Part shown: piece after piece, positions 262 through 5,871 of the stretch
How positions within the stretch are numbered: the stretch's first letter is position 1
How the letters are laid out: each line of letters opens with the position of its first letter
Position numbers and translations under genes: made by a program
DNA from: a virus
DNA length: 11,759 nucleotides
Strand: one strand, 5' to 3'
UHGV virus genome: UHGV-1580179
The notes under the pieces: model-generated
Databases searched by the model: none
Told to the model about the DNA's origin: nothing
What the model saw: only the letters and a program-made list of their open reading frames with translations

Positions 262-291
262 GCAAAGAAAACCCGGCACTGGGGCCGGGTT
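262..291 (-). terminator. Intrinsic terminator downstream of the ParA-like gene (position analogous to lambda t-imm)
   Basis: On the minus strand an 8-bp GC-rich stem (270-277 pairs with 284-291, core cccggc/gccggg, 6-nt loop) is followed by a U-tract (plus-strand caaagaaaa 262-270). It lies directly 3' of the gene ending at 299. Confidence 0.6.
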
Positions 292-298
292 GGTTGAT

Positions 299-1321
299 TT
301 ATAGTTTAACCACCATCCTATCAATGGCTTCTAAGCAAGATTGTTTATATGGGGCATTAACTTTTACCCTTCTGTTCATAACTCGTACACTACCTGTTGG
401 TAGGATCGAAAATGGACATCCTTTAGCAAAGGCAACAACACCAGTTGTCTGAAAATCTTTAATATTTACCACTCCCTCTTCAATATTTTCGAAGTCGAAA
501 ATTTCAGGGTTACTTAGTAATAGTTGCTGAATATCATTATCGATTGATTTTAGAACTGCGGCATAGGCTGATGCAGGCCCCATATACTGTGTAAGACGGT
601 TTTTTGCGATCATATGAACTTTGGGTAGTGGTCTGCTCACCGCGGTAAGTTTGTTTGCAAATGCGTAGGATGCATAAATATCAGATGGCAACTTTAATCC
701 ATAAATCAAAGAGAAAGCATTTTGAATGGCGCGACGAGAGGAATCATCAGCCATAACTGGCAAGATGAGCTTTTCTACAGCAGCTAATGCTATTTGAGTA
801 TAAATTGAAAAACTAGGATTACAGTCAATAAATAAAACATCGTACTCATCATTTAGATCTTTAATAAGATCATTAATCCAATCAATGATGCTTACCCATG
901 CATTTGTTCCTGGAATCTGCTGATTAGCAAGAGTGTTGATGGCGTTTGCTTGAAGCTCAAGAAGCGGGTCACCGCATACCAACGATATATTGGCTGGAAT
1001 ATGTTCGTTGAATTTTTTTGGGTGTGTCAAATAATCGTGGGCATCAACAATGGGTTTTTGATAAGGCGTCGGGAGGCGCATTTGGAAGTAGCCACCCAAA
1101 GTACATCTATTATTTATATCATGCCTAGTCAATAAGTTTATGCTTCCATTACCTATTAACCCCCCAAGAAAAAGCTCTGACAAGTTTGCCTGTGGGCACA
1201 CATCAATAACCAACACGCGCTCAAGCGGGTGAATTTCTGCATATCTGCAAATAGCTTGAAATGACAGGCTTGTTTTCCCTGTTCCTCCCTTGTTGTTCCA
1301 TATAGCATATTTCTTCATCAT
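299..1321 (-). CDS. Orphan ParA/MinD-family P-loop ATPase (340 aa) with ~90-aa C-terminal extension of unknown function
   Basis: Deviant Walker A KGGTGKTS near the N-terminus (MMKKYAIWNNKGGTGKT); ParA-type RVLVIDVCPQANLS motif; Walker B-like YDVLFIDCNPS. Start chosen at ATG 1321 (tandem ATG at 1318) with AGGAG 7 nt upstream; the ORF-track start at 1393 is a GTG without an RBS. Occupies the cI-to-OL slot where lambda has rexA-rexB. AT-rich relative to neighbours. Confidence 0.8.
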   Translation of the reverse strand: MMKKYAIWNNKGGTGKTSLSFQAICRYAEIHPLERVLVIDVCPQANLSELFLGGLIGNGSINLLTRHDINNRCTLGGYFQMRLPTPYQKPIVDAHDYLTHPKKFNEHIPANISLVCGDPLLELQANAINTLANQQIPGTNAWVSIIDWINDLIKDLNDEYDVLFIDCNPSFSIYTQIALAAVEKLILPVMADDSSRRAIQNAFSLIYGLKLPSDIYASYAFANKLTAVSRPLPKVHMIAKNRLTQYMGPASAYAAVLKSIDNDIQQLLLSNPEIFDFENIEEGVVNIKDFQTTGVVAFAKGCPFSILPTGSVRVMNRRVKVNAPYKQSCLEAIDRMVVKL

Positions 1322-1357
1322 AAACTCCTGGTTAACGATGTCATTGCTGGTTAATGT

Positions 1358-1435
1358 TTTACCATTGGTAAAGTGGTGCACCAAGAGTGACACGGTAAAC
1401 CAAATAGATCAAGACTTATGGTAAACGATTTACCA
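1358..1435. repeat. Two perfect palindromes sharing half-site TGGTAAA, plus one extra half-site, in the cI-ParA intergenic region
   Basis: tttaccaTtggtaaa 1358-1372 and tggtaaaCGAtttacca 1419-1435, with a single GGTAAACC half-site at 1394-1401. Centres are about 62 bp apart, immediately upstream of the ParA-like start. Confidence 0.6.
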
Positions 1436-1489
1436 GTGGTGACATCGATAACCGAAAAAGACTGCATTTCTGCAGCCTGTTTCACACAA

Positions 1490-2206
<717 letters not shown>

Positions 2207-2963: not shown

Positions 2964-3107
2964 ATGCGAAAAACGCAGGAAAATAAACGCGTTAATCACC
3001 GAAAAGATGTGCTACGTGACCAGTTTTATCAGGGGGTTAATCCAGCAATAGCTGTGCCACTGAGAGAAATACTTAACATGTACAAAACTTCGGAGAAGTC
3101 AAAATGA
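2964..3107 (+). CDS. Small basic hypothetical protein (47 aa), translationally coupled to the replication initiator
   Basis: ATG at 2964 with GAGGT RBS 6 nt upstream; stop overlaps the next start in ATGA at 3104-3107. Translation MRKTQENKRVNHRKDVLRDQFYQGVNPAIAVPLREILNMYKTSEKSK. No recognisable domain. Confidence 0.45.
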   Translation: MRKTQENKRVNHRKDVLRDQFYQGVNPAIAVPLREILNMYKTSEKSK

Positions 3108-3880
3108 GCATGAATCTTATGGCTAAGGCCATGAATATAAAGGTTGGCAACCCACTGAGAAAACTGGTTCTGATTAAACTTGCCGATAACGCCAATGATA
3201 ATGGCGAATGCTGGCCTTCATATCAACATGTCGCTGACCAGTGTGAGGTGAGCAGATCGACAGTAAAAAGTCACATTAGGGCACTGGAAGAGATGGGGCT
3301 TTTGAAAAGGGAATTCAGAAGAAAAGGAGAGCTTAACCAGTCAAACGTTTTTTATCTGACGCTGGATAATGCACAACAAATCCAGCCAGAATCAGGTGGG
3401 GCAGGAGCTGCCCGGGGTGGGGCAGGAGCTGCCCTAGGGGGTGGGGCAGGAACTGCCCCCAGAACCTATCACTCTTTTGAACCAGTCAATGAACCTAAAA
3501 ACATTATGTTCGAACATGTCCGAACGGAGTGTGAAAAAACTCCTGACCGTCACGAAGAAACCGACAAGGCATTCGAGGAAATATTCTGGTGTGCAGGCAT
3601 GCGGAAAGCCGGGAAGAAAAACGCAGCTTCGGCATTCAGAACACAGTTCAGGGAATGGCGTAAAACTACCAGGGGTACGGCAAGCGAGTTTGCCACGATG
3701 CTGGCAGAAGACATCGCATGCAGGAGTGGTAAGCAGTTCGGATTCGACAGGTTGTTACCATCGAGCTACCTGAACGGTCAACGCTGGAACGACGAGAAGC
3801 CAGAAACTATTCAACCGCAACCCAAACCATCATCCGCAATCACCGTATCGAAAACTGGCTACGTGTTTTTCGACAGGTGA
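3104..3880 (+). CDS. Putative replication initiator / origin-binding protein (258 aa; N-terminal winged-HTH, internal Gly/Ala linker encoded by iterons)
   Basis: N-terminal HTH-like segment (CWPSYQHVADQCEVSRSTVKSHIRALEEMGLLKRE). The ori-type iterons lie inside the ORF as in lambda O. Gene sits between cII and the primase-helicase. Confidence 0.6.
   Translation: MSMNLMAKAMNIKVGNPLRKLVLIKLADNANDNGECWPSYQHVADQCEVSRSTVKSHIRALEEMGLLKREFRRKGELNQSNVFYLTLDNAQQIQPESGGAGAARGGAGAALGGGAGTAPRTYHSFEPVNEPKNIMFEHVRTECEKTPDRHEETDKAFEEIFWCAGMRKAGKKNAASAFRTQFREWRKTTRGTASEFATMLAEDIACRSGKQFGFDRLLPSSYLNGQRWNDEKPETIQPQPKPSSAITVSKTGYVFFDR
3395..3458. repeat. Three 19-bp iterons with internal dyad symmetry (putative phage replication origin)
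   Basis: ggtggggcaggagctgccc at 3395-3413 and 3416-3434, and ggtggggcaggaactgccc at 3440-3458. Each contains the near-palindrome GGGCAG-N-CTGCCC. Followed by a moderately AT-rich stretch. Confidence 0.7.
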
Positions 3881-3990
3881 ACCATGAGATCCAGAATCAA
3901 ATCGTTACTTATCGCTGGCTATAACCATGGCTGGCTTAGTTCTGCATTCGTTGAGTTCTGGTTTAACCGTCTCGATCTGAGGTCAGCGTA

Positions 3991-5871
3991 ATGACTCCAA
4001 GTGAACTGAGCGACCTGCTTTGGGCGCAGGTTGACAGGGTGGCTCCGCACCTGTTGCCAAACGGCAAGAAAGAGGGGCATGAGTGGGTTGCCGGTAATGT
4101 CAACGGTGACAAGGGAAACAGCCTTAAGGTCAACCTTAGCGGCAAGAAAAAATGGGCTGATTTCGCCGAGGGAGACGGCGGTGACATGCTTGATTTGTGG
4201 ATGGCATGTCGTGGAATTAACCTGCATCAGGCTATGCAGGAAGCGAAAGCATTTCTCGGTATCAAGGATGACGATCACCATTTCGATGCCAGACGTGAGA
4301 AAAAATTCTCCAGACCTGATCGCAAGAAAATCGCCCGCTACGTTACCAGAACAGAATCCCATCTTGAGTACCTGCAATCGCGTGGCATATCGCCAGAAAT
4401 CGTAAAGCGCTACGAGGTTGTCAGCGGCAAGGTGTGGAATGGAGAGCGGGAACTGGATGCTCTGGTGATTCCGTACAAACGCGATGGTGAGTTGTTGCAG
4501 GTCAAGCGAATCAGCACTGAGCGCCCGGACGGGAAGAAAGTCATTATGGCAGAAGGTGATTGCGAACCTTGCCTGTTCGGATGGCAGGCTCTGGACGCTG
4601 GCGTGAGGGCGGTTGTACTTTGCGAAGGCGAAATTGATTGTATGAGCTATGCGCAATACGGCATCTCGGCGTTATCCGTACCGTTTGGTGGAGGGAAAGG
4701 CGCTAAGCAACAGTGGATTGAGTTTGAGTATCACAACCTCGACAGGTTTGAGGAAATATTCATCTCGATGGACGTTGATGATGTTGGTCGTGAAGCCGCA
4801 AGGGAAATCGCAAGCCGACTCGGTGAACATCGTTGCCGTCTTGTTACTCTGCCGTGCAAAGACATCAACGAATGCCTGATGAACGGTGTTACCGAGGATG
4901 AAATCTGGCAGTACATCGGCACGGCATCCTACTTCGATCCTGAAGAACTCTACAGCGCGCGAGAGTTTTACCAGGACACTATCAACGCTTTCTACGGCAA
5001 GCAGCAGTATCTGTTTAATCCACCGTGGGAATCTCTGGCAGATAAATTCCAGTTCCGTGAGGCAGAGTTGACGCTGGTCAATGGTGTGAACGGTCACGGA
5101 AAAACGGAGGTTGTCGGGCATATGGCACTTGAGGCAATGCGTCAGGGTGTGAAGACGTGCATCGCGTCACTTGAGCTGAAGCCTGGTATTCTCCTTAAGC
5201 GCCTTACCCGTCAGGCGACGTGCTGCAAGATGCCGCCAGTGCTGGAAATTGACTCTGCATTTAAATTTTATGACGAAAGACTTTGGGTGTTTGGCCTGAC
5301 CGGAACGGCGAAAGCCGACAGGCTGATCGAAATATTCGACTACGCTCGCCGCCGATACGGGATCCAGTTATTCATCATCGACAGCCTGATGAAATGTGGC
5401 ATAGGCGACGATGACTATAACGGGCAGAAGGCGTTTGTTGACTCGATTTGCGACTTCAAAAACAAAACAAACTCCCACGTCATTCTCGTTACTCACTCGC
5501 GAAAAGGAGACAGCGAAGAAAAACCAACCGGGAAAATGGACGTAAAAGGCTCTGGAGCGATAACAGACCTGACAGACAACCTTTTCATCATCTGGCGTAA
5601 CAAGGCTCGCGAGAGAGCGTTACAGAGAGTTCAGAGTGGTGAAAAGATGTCAGAGAAGGACGAACAGCTACTGGCATCTCCGGCATCTGTTTTGATGCTT
5701 GAAAAACAACGTAACGGCGAAGGTTGGGAAGGTGGTGTCCCGTTGTTCCTTGACGAGCAATCGCACCAGTTCCTGCAACTTGAATCAGGATCGCCATATA
5801 GCTACATCGCCAATATGCCGAAATCGGAATATGACGAGGCGTGGCGACAGGAAAACGTGACGGAGTATTAA
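3991..5871 (+). CDS. Bifunctional DNA primase / replicative helicase (626 aa; TOPRIM plus DnaB/SF4-like ATPase)
   Basis: TOPRIM-like acidic motif ...AVVLCEGEIDCMSYAQYGI...FISMDVDDVGREAA. Walker A LVNGVNGHGKTE and Walker B-like LFIIDSLMK in the C-terminal half. ATG 3991 is preceded by GAGG. Confidence 0.8.
   Translation: MTPSELSDLLWAQVDRVAPHLLPNGKKEGHEWVAGNVNGDKGNSLKVNLSGKKKWADFAEGDGGDMLDLWMACRGINLHQAMQEAKAFLGIKDDDHHFDARREKKFSRPDRKKIARYVTRTESHLEYLQSRGISPEIVKRYEVVSGKVWNGERELDALVIPYKRDGELLQVKRISTERPDGKKVIMAEGDCEPCLFGWQALDAGVRAVVLCEGEIDCMSYAQYGISALSVPFGGGKGAKQQWIEFEYHNLDRFEEIFISMDVDDVGREAAREIASRLGEHRCRLVTLPCKDINECLMNGVTEDEIWQYIGTASYFDPEELYSAREFYQDTINAFYGKQQYLFNPPWESLADKFQFREAELTLVNGVNGHGKTEVVGHMALEAMRQGVKTCIASLELKPGILLKRLTRQATCCKMPPVLEIDSAFKFYDERLWVFGLTGTAKADRLIEIFDYARRRYGIQLFIIDSLMKCGIGDDDYNGQKAFVDSICDFKNKTNSHVILVTHSRKGDSEEKPTGKMDVKGSGAITDLTDNLFIIWRNKARERALQRVQSGEKMSEKDEQLLASPASVLMLEKQRNGEGWEGGVPLFLDEQSHQFLQLESGSPYSYIANMPKSEYDEAWRQENVTEY

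What the first reader, a model, noticed from the sequence alone, without database searches (positions are those of the whole stretch)
1358..1435. Two perfect palindromes sharing half-site TGGTAAA, candidate operator or centromere-like sites upstream of the ParA-like gene
The 168-bp spacer between cI and the ParA-like gene carries tttaccaTtggtaaa (15 bp) and tggtaaaCGAtttacca (17 bp), both perfect inverted repeats of the same 7-mer, plus a third isolated half-site between them. Two perfect palindromes built from one half-site, ~62 bp apart, are unlikely by chance and look like binding sites for a dimeric DNA-binding protein. They overlap a weak promoter-like element (TTGGTG-17-TAAAAC on the minus strand), suggesting the ATPase gene has its own regulated promoter in addition to read-through from pRM/pRE. 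They could instead be sites the ParA-like protein or a partner acts on.
Basis: seen in the sequence. Interest (0 to 1): 0.5.

Follow-up and report, generated by a model that had tools for sequence, protein, structure and literature searches.

The report
Operator array of a stand-alone ParA-like gene
The two palindromes are real and belong to a conserved cluster of binding sites around the private promoter of a lone ParA-like ATPase gene that replaces rexAB in a lambda-immunity prophage; homologous sites precede this gene in many phyla, so the ATPase probably binds them and represses itself.

Summary
TTTACCAtTGGTAAA (1358-1372) and TGGTAAAcgaTTTACCA (1419-1435) are exact, and no shuffle out of 10000 reproduced two palindromes sharing a half-site.

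They are part of a larger 125-bp array (1330-1453):
- three copies of a 15-bp box, GGTTAACGATGTCAC;
- three to four TGGTAAA-N3-TTTACCA dyads;
- an embedded promoter, TTGATC-17-TGT-CACTCT.

An intrinsic terminator between cI and the array insulates it from cI transcription.

All 22 distinct upstream variants of close homologues (88-100% protein identity) keep this layout, with conserved arms and free spacers. The 17-bp palindrome is the canonical dyad. The 15-bp palindrome is the junction of two adjacent dyads.

The dyad core GTAAA-N3-TTTAC is the local form of a family-wide dyad, GTCCA-N3-TGGAC or GTACA-N3-TGTAC. This dyad occurs upstream of 89 of 110 non-redundant homologues from many phyla, often exactly between the -35 and -10 elements. 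The gene has no conserved neighbour.

The best reading is that the ParA-like ATPase, which has no HTH domain, binds the sites itself and represses its own promoter. This is inferred, not shown.

The protein is a 32%-identical, full-length relative of GiPD474, a validated single-gene prophage defence ATPase.

Verdict: a new variant of a known kind, of moderate to high interest.

The parts
270..291 (.). Bidirectional intrinsic terminator downstream of the ParA-like gene; equivalent to lambda's terminator distal to rexB
   Evidence: 8-bp stem, 6 G-C pairs. One search aligns it with lambda 35.7 kb; lambda homology ends just after it.
299..1318 (-). Stand-alone ParA-like ATPase gene, 339 aa, deviant Walker A KGGTGKT at residues 10-16. 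It replaces rexA-rexB.
1325..1329 (-). Shine-Dalgarno AGGAG, 6 nt before the ATG at 1318
   Evidence: Homologues start MKKYAIWNNKGG.
1330..1344 (-). Inverted copy of the 15-bp box (coding strand ATGACATCGTTAACC), about +34 to +48 from the predicted start
   Evidence: an inverted box ends 24-30 nt before the ATG in 20 of 22 variants.
1348..1364 (.). Proximal dyad 2, imperfect 7-3-7 (coding strand TGGTAAA-aca-TTAACCA)
   Evidence: one arm mismatch; conserved at -44 to -47 from the ATG in close relatives.
1358..1372 (.).
   Evidence: kept with at most 2 mismatches at -52 to -56 in 13 of 22 variants (the 'long' form).
1366..1383 (.). Proximal dyad 1, decayed (coding strand TGGTGCA-ccac-TTTACCA). 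Contains the 10-bp palindrome TGGTGCACCA (1374-1383) and spans the predicted start near 1377.
   Evidence: aligns with the intact TGGTAAAccgTTTACCA of L122 and L120.
1384..1392 (-). Predicted extended -10 (TGT + CACTCT); predicted transcription start near 1377
   Evidence: TGn plus a hexamer with A2 and T6, at a 17-nt spacing, in 19 of 22 variants. This is inferred, not measured.
1387..1401 (-). Proximal box (coding strand GGTTTACCGTGTCAC) filling the promoter spacer and -10.
1407..1412 (-). Predicted -35 TTGATC
   Evidence: TTGAYC lies 5 nt upstream of the proximal box in nearly all variants.
1419..1435 (.).
   Evidence: a perfect or near-perfect copy at this place in every variant.
1439..1453 (-). 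Distal box (coding strand GGTTATCGATGTCAC)
1455..1478 (-). Intrinsic-terminator-like hairpin AGGCUGCAGAAAUGCAGUCU plus U-run, directly after the cI stop; insulates the cassette
   Evidence: -11.5 kcal/mol, z = -2.5. GGTCGCAGAnATGCGGCC-T6-8 in most variants.
1490..2203 (-). Lambda cI repressor gene (context only, not part of the cassette)

Best explanation
The palindromes are operators. Region 1330-1453 is a dense array of half-sites (TGGTAAA-N3-TTTACCA dyads and GGTTAACGATGTCAC boxes) placed upstream of, inside and downstream of a private sigma-70 promoter. That promoter (-35 at 1412-1407, extended -10 at 1392-1384, start near 1377) drives a stand-alone ParA-like ATPase gene. A terminator just after cI isolates the cassette from pRM transcription.

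The protein most likely to occupy the sites is the ParA-like ATPase itself. It would bind as a two-fold symmetric dimer or higher oligomer and shut down its own promoter (negative autoregulation). A C-terminal beta-hairpin (residues 309-320) is the candidate DNA-reading element.

Shown here: the sites exist, are conserved, have the signature of protein-binding sites, travel with the gene, and sit in the promoter in distant relatives. Inferred: the exact promoter, the direction of regulation, and the identity of the binding protein.
For: 1. Chance is excluded: no shuffle out of 10000 gave two palindromes sharing a half-site.
2. All 22 distinct upstream variants of homologues with 88-100% protein identity keep at least 2 dyads, except L123, whose copies are more degenerate. 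Arm positions 2, 3, 4, 6 and 12, 14, 15, 16 are nearly invariant and the 3-nt spacer is free. Each variant also keeps 2-3 boxes.
3. Changes in the two arms, or in the direct and inverted boxes, are not compensatory. Each site drifts around a consensus, as protein sites do and hairpins do not.
4. In 283 kb of these loci the dyad occurs only upstream of this gene, with one exception.
5. The cassette sits behind at least 8 unrelated repressor types, or none. In Yersinia it is convergent with the repressor gene. So the sites go with the ATPase gene, not with cI.
6. The core GTAAA-N3-TTTAC is homologous in form to GTCCA-N3-TGGAC and GTACA-N3-TGTAC. Such a dyad is found upstream of 89 of 110 non-redundant homologues, against about 11 in shuffles and 10 in coding controls. 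In 34 of 68 distant loci it lies exactly between a -35 and a -10 element.
7. The same GTCCA dyad accompanies the gene in Actinobacteria, Cyanobacteria, Proteobacteria, Acidobacteria, Verrucomicrobia and archaeal MAGs. No neighbouring gene family is shared by more than 4 of 92 loci. The only conserved candidate binder is therefore the gene's own product.
8. Of 339 protein alignment columns, the three that best track the central dinucleotide of the dyad are 310, 312 and 311, which are contiguous in the confidently modelled C-terminal beta-hairpin.
9. An unbiased promoter scan picks TTGAYC-17-TGn-NANNNT at the same place in 19 of 22 variants.
Against: - No binding experiment exists.
- No residue cleanly separates the GTCC from the GTAC operator classes.
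- The hairpin signal is confounded by phylogeny, because the GTAAA class is a single clade.
- The window's -10 (CACTCT) is weak, and the start site is predicted, not mapped.
- In this clade the promoter spacer holds the box rather than a dyad, so the geometry differs from the distant clades.
- A distal dyad centred near -50 could also fit activation.
- The related GiPD474-type genes lack this array.
Confidence: 0.6

Rival explanations
1. The sites are operators, but a different protein binds them: a host transcription factor (for example a GntR/FadR-type regulator, whose sites resemble TGGT-N9-ACCA) or another prophage factor. The ATPase would then be a regulated target rather than its own regulator.
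For: The ATPase has no canonical DNA-binding domain. No residue cleanly tracks GTCC against GTAC operators. The resemblance of TGGTAAAnnnTTTACCA to GntR-family operator patterns is from my own knowledge and was not tested.
Against: The dyad follows the gene across at least 6 phyla and an archaeal MAG, with the same GTCCA core. It follows the cassette behind at least 8 different repressors or none. No conserved neighbour exists. A host factor of identical specificity in all these hosts is implausible.
Confidence: 0.2
2. The array is mainly a centromere-like or nucleation site for the biological action of the ParA-like ATPase (loading, positioning, or marking its own DNA), and transcriptional control is only a by-product.
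For: The array has many half-sites at 9-10 bp spacing. Sister-clade genes carry 4-10 tandem GATGTCCAC repeats. This resembles the iterated centromeres of type Ib and type II partition loci, such as the omega heptads and R1 parC (own knowledge; PMC9178275 cites the omega heptads). The protein has a true ParA fold.
Against: There is no ParB/ParG-like adaptor gene in the window or in 92 loci. An integrated prophage needs no partition. In half of the distant loci a single dyad sits precisely in the promoter spacer, which is a regulatory position. No other dyads occur elsewhere in the prophage DNA sampled.
Confidence: 0.13
3. The inverted repeats act at the RNA level, as 5'-UTR hairpins or a long stem between the outer boxes that controls termination, stability or translation.
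For: There is a 36-nt imperfect inverted repeat. Each 7-3-7 dyad could form a small hairpin.
Against: The predicted 5'-UTR folds no better than shuffles (z = -1.35). There is no Rfam match. Differences between the paired boxes and between dyad arms are additive, not compensatory. In distant clades the dyad lies between -35 and -10 and is not transcribed. The distal arm lies upstream of the predicted start.
Confidence: 0.04
4. The sites are accessory operators for lambda cI or relics of the recombination that inserted the cassette, with no present function.
For: TACCAGTGG (1432-1440) resembles a lambda operator half-site, as read from the sequence. The cassette replaces rexAB exactly between the cI stop and the terminator.
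Against: No full 17-bp lambda operator is present. The same array accompanies the gene next to unrelated repressors. It shows site-specific conservation across 22 variants.
Confidence: 0.03

Closest known systems
Type Ia ParA autorepressors (P1 ParA, F SopA)
   Same: A Walker-type ParA ATPase binds inverted-repeat operators at its own promoter and represses it, and the nucleotide state modulates binding (PMC9178275). This is the closest analogy for the mechanism proposed here.
   Different: Type Ia proteins use an N-terminal HTH domain and are encoded with a parB gene and a centromere. The window protein has its Walker A at residues 10-16, no HTH and no partner gene.
GiPD474, the Gifsy-1 (S. 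Typhimurium 4/74) single-gene phage-defence ATPase (PMC12724215)
   Same: It is a single ParA/MinD/Soj-like AAA_31 ATPase gene placed beside the repressor in the immunity region of a lambdoid prophage, and it is expressed in the lysogen. It aligns over its full length with the window protein, including the C-terminal extension: 32% identity, E = 1e-52 against cluster P0138/P0252, which carries GGVGKT at residues 29-34 as described for GiPD474.
   Different: It belongs to a different subfamily: 361 aa with an extra N-terminal segment. Its upstream region has no GTxxA-N3-TxxAC array. Defence activity of the window protein was not tested. PADLOC gives no hit.
Type Ib/II partition operators made of iterated short repeats (pSM19035 omega heptads, TP228 ParG sites, R1 parC)
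   Same: Multiple short half-sites in direct and inverted orientation flank and overlap the promoter of a small ParA-type gene.
   Different: In those systems a separate small ribbon-helix-helix or ParR protein, encoded downstream, binds the repeats. No such gene exists here.
Lambda rexAB and other immunity-region morons; remAIN (STM14_3218-3220) in Gifsy-1
   Same: All occupy the same genomic slot between cI and oL/N, which in other lambdoid phages holds exclusion or defence genes. remAIN also contains a ParA-like ATPase (PMC9879122, PMC12724215).
   Different: rexAB is co-transcribed with cI from pRM, with no intervening terminator. remAIN is a three-gene system with a 279-aa ATPase. The window cassette is a single gene with its own insulated, operator-rich promoter.
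ParI, an orphan ParA on a Pseudomonas putida genomic island
   Same: It is a stand-alone ParA on a mobile element that acts against other mobile elements by destabilising IncP-7 plasmids (PMC9178275).
   Different: No sequence relationship was tested, and no cognate operator array is described.

Membership tests
Type Ia ParA autorepressor | N-terminal helix-turn-helix DNA-binding domain ahead of the Walker A motif | tested here: not met
Type Ia ParA autorepressor | Co-transcribed parB gene and a parS centromere | tested here: not met
   No downstream gene lies before the terminator at 270-291. No neighbour family is conserved in 92 loci.
Type Ia ParA autorepressor | Inverted-repeat operator overlapping its own promoter | tested here: met
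   Dyads and boxes flank and overlap the conserved promoter. In 34 of 68 distant loci the dyad lies inside the promoter spacer. Binding by the protein was not tested.
ParA/MinD (SIMIBI) ATPase fold | Deviant Walker A with signature lysine and a ParA-like fold | tested here: met
Type Ib partition cassette (ParF/ParG, delta/omega) | Small centromere-binding protein gene downstream of parA | tested here: not met
GiPD474-type prophage defence ATPase | Single AAA_31/ParA-fold gene adjacent to the prophage repressor module | tested here: met
   The same synteny is seen in Klebsiella phage ST11-VIM1phi8.2 and Pseudomonas phage phi297.
GiPD474-type prophage defence ATPase | Sequence membership (the authors used at least 70% identity and 70% coverage) | tested here: not met
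   Identity to the GiPD474-type cluster is 32%. The two are homologous over their full length but belong to different subfamilies.
GiPD474-type prophage defence ATPase | Reduces plating of phages when expressed | not testable with these tools
   Needs efficiency-of-plating assays.
Phage moron | Autonomous transcription unit (own promoter and terminator) inserted between backbone genes and found in varied contexts | tested here: met
   Terminators lie on both sides. A conserved promoter is present. Lambda flanks are intact. Contexts differ among relatives. The promoter is predicted, not mapped.
Lambda cI operator | 17-bp TATCACCGC-type dyad; co-occurrence with lambda cI | tested here: not met
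   No full operator match in 1322-1489. The array occurs with unrelated repressors.
Structured RNA element | Stable fold with compensatory changes, or an Rfam match | tested here: not met

The most novel reading that the evidence does not exclude
A very large, phylum-spanning family of stand-alone ParA-type ATPases (more than 5700 proteins, 339 aa, 56-70% identical across phyla) consists of sequence-specific DNA-binding proteins without any HTH or RHH domain. An ATP-dependent dimer would read a GTxxA-N3-TxxAC dyad through a C-terminal beta-hairpin (residues 310-312 setting the central dinucleotide) and switch off its own promoter. In prophages, this self-regulated switch would be the front end of a GiPD474-like single-gene anti-phage defence.
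Probability: 0.4. Interest if true: 0.78.

Novelty: new variant of a known kind. Interest (0 to 1): 0.6.

Why it matters
ParA/MinD ATPases of this small type are regarded as non-specific DNA binders that need an adaptor protein. Only the large type Ia proteins, which carry an added HTH domain, are known to repress their own genes.

Here the gene travels alone through many phyla and always carries the same kind of dyad in its promoter. If the ATPase reads that dyad itself, it would be a new mode of sequence recognition in this superfamily. It would also be a compact ATP-gated autoregulatory switch.

The protein is a full-length relative of GiPD474, a recently validated single-gene prophage defence, and sits in the classical rexAB slot. 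The array therefore gives a concrete handle on how such defence ATPases are kept in check in a lysogen: defined sites, candidate residues 310-312, and natural specificity variants GTCCA, GTACA and GTAAA.

If the binder turns out to be an ordinary host factor, the finding reduces to a well-documented moron promoter.

Tried and rejected
- Exact-dyad scan of viral contigs. The output was limited to 120 rows. Only 2 hits lay next to the gene; the rest were in AT-rich metagenomic contigs (median GC 37%) and look like chance. The scan says nothing about a host regulon.
- E. coli complete genomes. The cassette is absent from all 5426, so no E. coli context could be used.
- PADLOC gave no hit. NCBIfam gave only sub-threshold partition-ATPase hits.
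- Simple class-discriminating residues between GTCC and GTAC operator types: none found. The mutual-information ranking points to residues 310-312 but is phylogenetically confounded.
- RNA explanations were rejected: Rfam, 5'-UTR fold.
- The scan tool's best promoter, ATGACA-16-TATGAT (1344-1317), overlaps the start codon and is not conserved. Rejected.
Rejected.
- STM14_3218, the Gifsy-1 remAIN ATPase, is 279 aa in a three-gene system, so it is a different protein.
- The 39%-identical homologues on small ColE1-type plasmids and the GiPD474-type genes do not show the same array.
- Several literature searches found no description of this family's dyads or of DNA binding by it.

Full report
CONTEXT

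The window is a lambda-immunity lambdoid prophage region. The layout is:
- oL at 1-120;
- a terminator at 270-291;
- a 339-aa ParA-like gene on the minus strand (299-1318);
- a 168-bp spacer (1322-1489);
- cI (1490-2203, minus strand);
- oR and cro.

Alignment with phage lambda shows that both flanks are lambda. Homology runs from oL to the terminator distal to rexB and resumes at the cI stop codon. rexA, rexB and the 112-bp cI-rexA spacer have been replaced by the cassette. The same protein occurs in many prophages that have lambda cI and cro but different replication and recombination modules. It is absent from 5426 complete E. coli genomes.

THE OBSERVATION

Both palindromes are exact: TTTACCA-t-TGGTAAA at 1358-1372 and TGGTAAA-cga-TTTACCA at 1419-1435.
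- The heptamer occurs 8 times in the window against 1.57 expected.
- No dinucleotide-preserving shuffle of the spacer out of 10000 gave two 7-nt-arm palindromes sharing a half-site.
- The 'third half-site' is CGGTAAA (1393-1399), a 6/7 match.

- a 36-nt imperfect inverted repeat, 1330-1365 against 1418-1453;
- a further imperfect dyad at 1348-1364;
- the palindrome TGGTGCACCA at 1374-1383;
- a terminator-like hairpin with a U-run immediately after cI (1459-1478; -11.5 kcal/mol, z = -2.5).

ANATOMY FROM CLOSE RELATIVES

Viral and genomic searches gave 22 distinct upstream sequences for homologues with 88-100% protein identity, including Salmonella phage S.Inf 5-2, Pectobacterium and Rahnella.

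All share one layout, read here on the coding strand:
1. a terminator, GGTCGCAGAnATGCGGCC followed by a T-run (present in most);
2. a 15-bp box, GGTTAACGATGTCAC;
3. a dyad, TGGTAAA-N3-TTTACCA;
4. TTGAYC;
5. 5 nt;
6. a second box;
7. one dyad ('short' form), or two dyads separated by 1 bp ('long' form);
8. an inverted box;
9. the Shine-Dalgarno sequence and the ATG.

In 47 dyad instances, arm positions 2, 3, 4, 6 and 12, 14, 15, 16 are nearly invariant, while the three spacer bases vary freely. Differences between the two arms of a dyad, and between direct and inverted boxes, add up rather than compensate. This is the signature of protein-binding sites, not of a hairpin.

In the window:
- The 17-bp palindrome is the canonical distal dyad.
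- The 15-bp palindrome is the junction between the two proximal dyads. One of these has decayed to TGGTGCA-ccac-TTTACCA (1383-1366). The other is TGGTAAA-aca-TTAACCA (1364-1348).
- The junction palindrome is retained with at most 2 mismatches in 13 of 22 variants.

In 283 kb of these loci the dyad occurs only in front of this gene, with one exception.

THE PROMOTER

An unbiased scan for TTGNNN, then 16-18 nt, then NANNNT, with a bonus for an extended-minus-10 TG, picks the same place in 19 of 22 variants: TTGAYC, 17 nt, TGT, CAYCAT.

In the window this is TTGATC (1412-1407), TGT (1392-1390) and CACTCT (1389-1384). It predicts a transcription start near 1377. Relative to that start:
- the distal box and dyad lie at about -76 to -42;
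- the proximal box fills the spacer and the -10;
- the proximal dyads lie at about -6 to +30;
- the inverted box lies at +34 to +48.

This is a repressor-type arrangement.

Two other candidate promoters were rejected. The scan tool's ATGACA-16-TATGAT overlaps the start codon.

Need for a private promoter is independently indicated in three ways:
- the terminator after cI;
- a Yersinia prophage in which the gene is convergent with the repressor gene;
- relatives located at prophage ends or next to dinI.

THE GENE FAMILY AND ITS DYAD

It belongs to a very large family: more than 5700 proteins at E below 1e-10, almost all 338-340 aa, and 56-70% identical between Enterobacteria, Streptomyces, cyanobacteria, Acidobacteria, Verrucomicrobia, Firmicutes and archaeal MAGs.

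No neighbouring gene family is shared by more than 4 of 92 distant loci. It is a true stand-alone gene.

Its upstream DNA is nevertheless not free.
- 89 of 110 non-redundant upstream regions carry a dyad of the form GTxxx-N3-xxxAC, with at most one arm mismatch.
- The corresponding figures are about 11 in shuffles (maximum 22) and 10 in coding-sequence controls.
- The arms are mostly GTCCA (44 instances), then GTAAA, GTTAA and GTACA.
- In 34 of 68 distant loci the dyad sits exactly inside a sigma-70 spacer. An example is TTGACA-t-GTCCATTTTGGAC-gg-TATAAT.

The window's dyad core, GTAAA-cga-TTTAC, has the same 5-3-5 form with the same 9-bp spacing. The sister clade in Serratia, Yersinia and Hafnia (74-76% protein identity) has GTCCATAATGGAC plus 3-10 tandem GATGTCCAC repeats. 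The window's box, GATGTCAC, looks like a relic of these repeats.

WHO BINDS

The same GTCCA dyad accompanies the gene in at least six phyla. In the close clade, the array follows the gene behind at least eight different repressor types or none. The cassette encodes one protein only. The most economical inference is that the ParA-like ATPase recognises the dyads itself, as a two-fold symmetric ATP-sandwich dimer, and represses its own promoter.

One further piece of evidence supports this weakly. Among 339 alignment columns, the three with the highest mutual information with the central dinucleotide of the dyad (CC, AC or AA) are 310, 312 and 311, which are contiguous in the first strand of the C-terminal hairpin. 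The states are K or R / R / S at 310, T or D / D or N / R at 312, and L or Q / L or H / V at 311. This signal is confounded by phylogeny, and no single residue separates GTCC from GTAC loci.

Against the inference, no ParA of this small type is known to bind DNA specifically. Only type Ia proteins do so, through an N-terminal HTH (PMC9178275).

RIVAL EXPLANATIONS
- A host factor: disfavoured by the cross-phylum distribution of the dyad.
- A centromere or nucleation role: there is no adaptor gene, and the position in the promoter spacer is regulatory. This role could nevertheless coexist with regulation.
- RNA structure: no Rfam hit, a 5'-UTR fold with z = -1.35, and no compensatory changes.
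- Lambda cI binding or a recombination scar: the array occurs with unrelated repressors and is conserved site by site.

WHAT THE GENE MAY DO

A 2025 study showed that GiPD474 confers broad phage resistance and works in E. coli (PMC12724215). GiPD474 is a single ParA/MinD/Soj-like AAA_31 ATPase of 361 aa, encoded beside the repressor of Gifsy-1 in S. Typhimurium 4/74.

A cluster of 361-aa E. coli and S. Typhimurium proteins carries GGVGKT at residues 29-34, exactly as described for GiPD474. It aligns with the window protein over the full length at 32% identity, E = 1e-52.

Similar genes follow cI in Klebsiella phage ST11-VIM1phi8.2 and Pseudomonas phage phi297.

The window gene is therefore plausibly a defence or exclusion gene in the rexAB slot. 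This rests on distant homology and synteny only. PADLOC has no match. The GiPD474-type genes lack the dyad array, so the array is a feature of the 339-aa family.

VERDICT

The operator interpretation is supported by comparative evidence. The promoter assignment and the read-through idea need correction.

The mechanism I commit to is negative autoregulation of an insulated moron promoter by the ParA-like ATPase binding a dyad-and-box array. My confidence levels are:
- about 0.9 that these are functional protein-binding sites of this gene's control region;
- about 0.75 that they regulate transcription;
- about 0.55-0.6 that the ATPase itself is the binder.

Noticed in passing
window 2268 (OR1, 2262-2278): OR1 reads TACCTCTAGCGGTGATA, a G-to-A change from the lambda reference TACCTCTGGCGGTGATA. 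The rest of oR, pRM and pR is identical to lambda apart from one base in cI. This could alter repressor or Cro affinity at OR1.
   Followed up: partly
L098:2880-2990 (Serratia fonticola prophage); L100:2940-2985 (Yersinia mollaretii); L091 (Hafnia): Sister-clade orthologues (74-76% identity) carry one GTCCATAATGGAC dyad after a TTGACY -35. Between the promoter and the start codon they then have 3-10 perfect tandem copies of the 9-mer GATGTCCAC. The copy number varies between species.
   Followed up: partly
L146 (CP148862.1) and 16 similar PLSDB records: Seventeen Salmonella Infantis records of a 5.87-kb circular 'plasmid' consist only of a prophage immunity region (cII, cro, repressor, the ParA-like gene at 98.5% identity, and an antiterminator). 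No replication gene is annotated. They may be assembly artefacts or excised circles.
   Followed up: no
L268:2453-3529 (Klebsiella phage ST11-VIM1phi8.2); L269:2459-3511 (Pseudomonas phage phi297): Distantly related ParA-like genes (31% and 35.5% identity) sit immediately downstream of the cI-like repressor in phages of other genera. A ParA-like ATPase in the rexAB slot is therefore a recurrent theme.
   Followed up: partly
L147:2282-3340 (Enterobacter cloacae ColRNAI plasmid) and about 130 other plasmid records: Homologues at about 39-40% identity, 352 aa, are carried as cargo on small mobilizable ColE1-type plasmids of E. coli, Klebsiella and Salmonella. Such plasmids need no partition system. 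Their upstream DNA lacks the GTxxA dyads.
   Followed up: partly
L268:2428-2445 and L098:2985-3000: The leader ACGGTAAACTTAGG, just before the start codon, is shared between a GiPD474-type gene (Klebsiella phage) and a 339-aa-family gene (Serratia). This suggests exchange of 5' regions between the two subfamilies.
   Followed up: no
L270:2345-2375: Upstream of the E. coli GiPD474-type gene lies GGTCCATAAAAATGGAT, a TCCAT-N4-ATGGA palindrome that resembles the GTCCA dyad but has different spacing. AAAGATAA/TTATCTTT inverted repeats are also present.
   Followed up: no
window 3104-5871: The replication module is not lambda O/P. It is an HTH_36 protein (258 aa) followed by a 626-aa Toprim/AAA_25 primase-helicase-like protein. 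Sibling prophages with the identical cI-ParA cassette carry O/P or O/DnaB modules instead.
   Followed up: no
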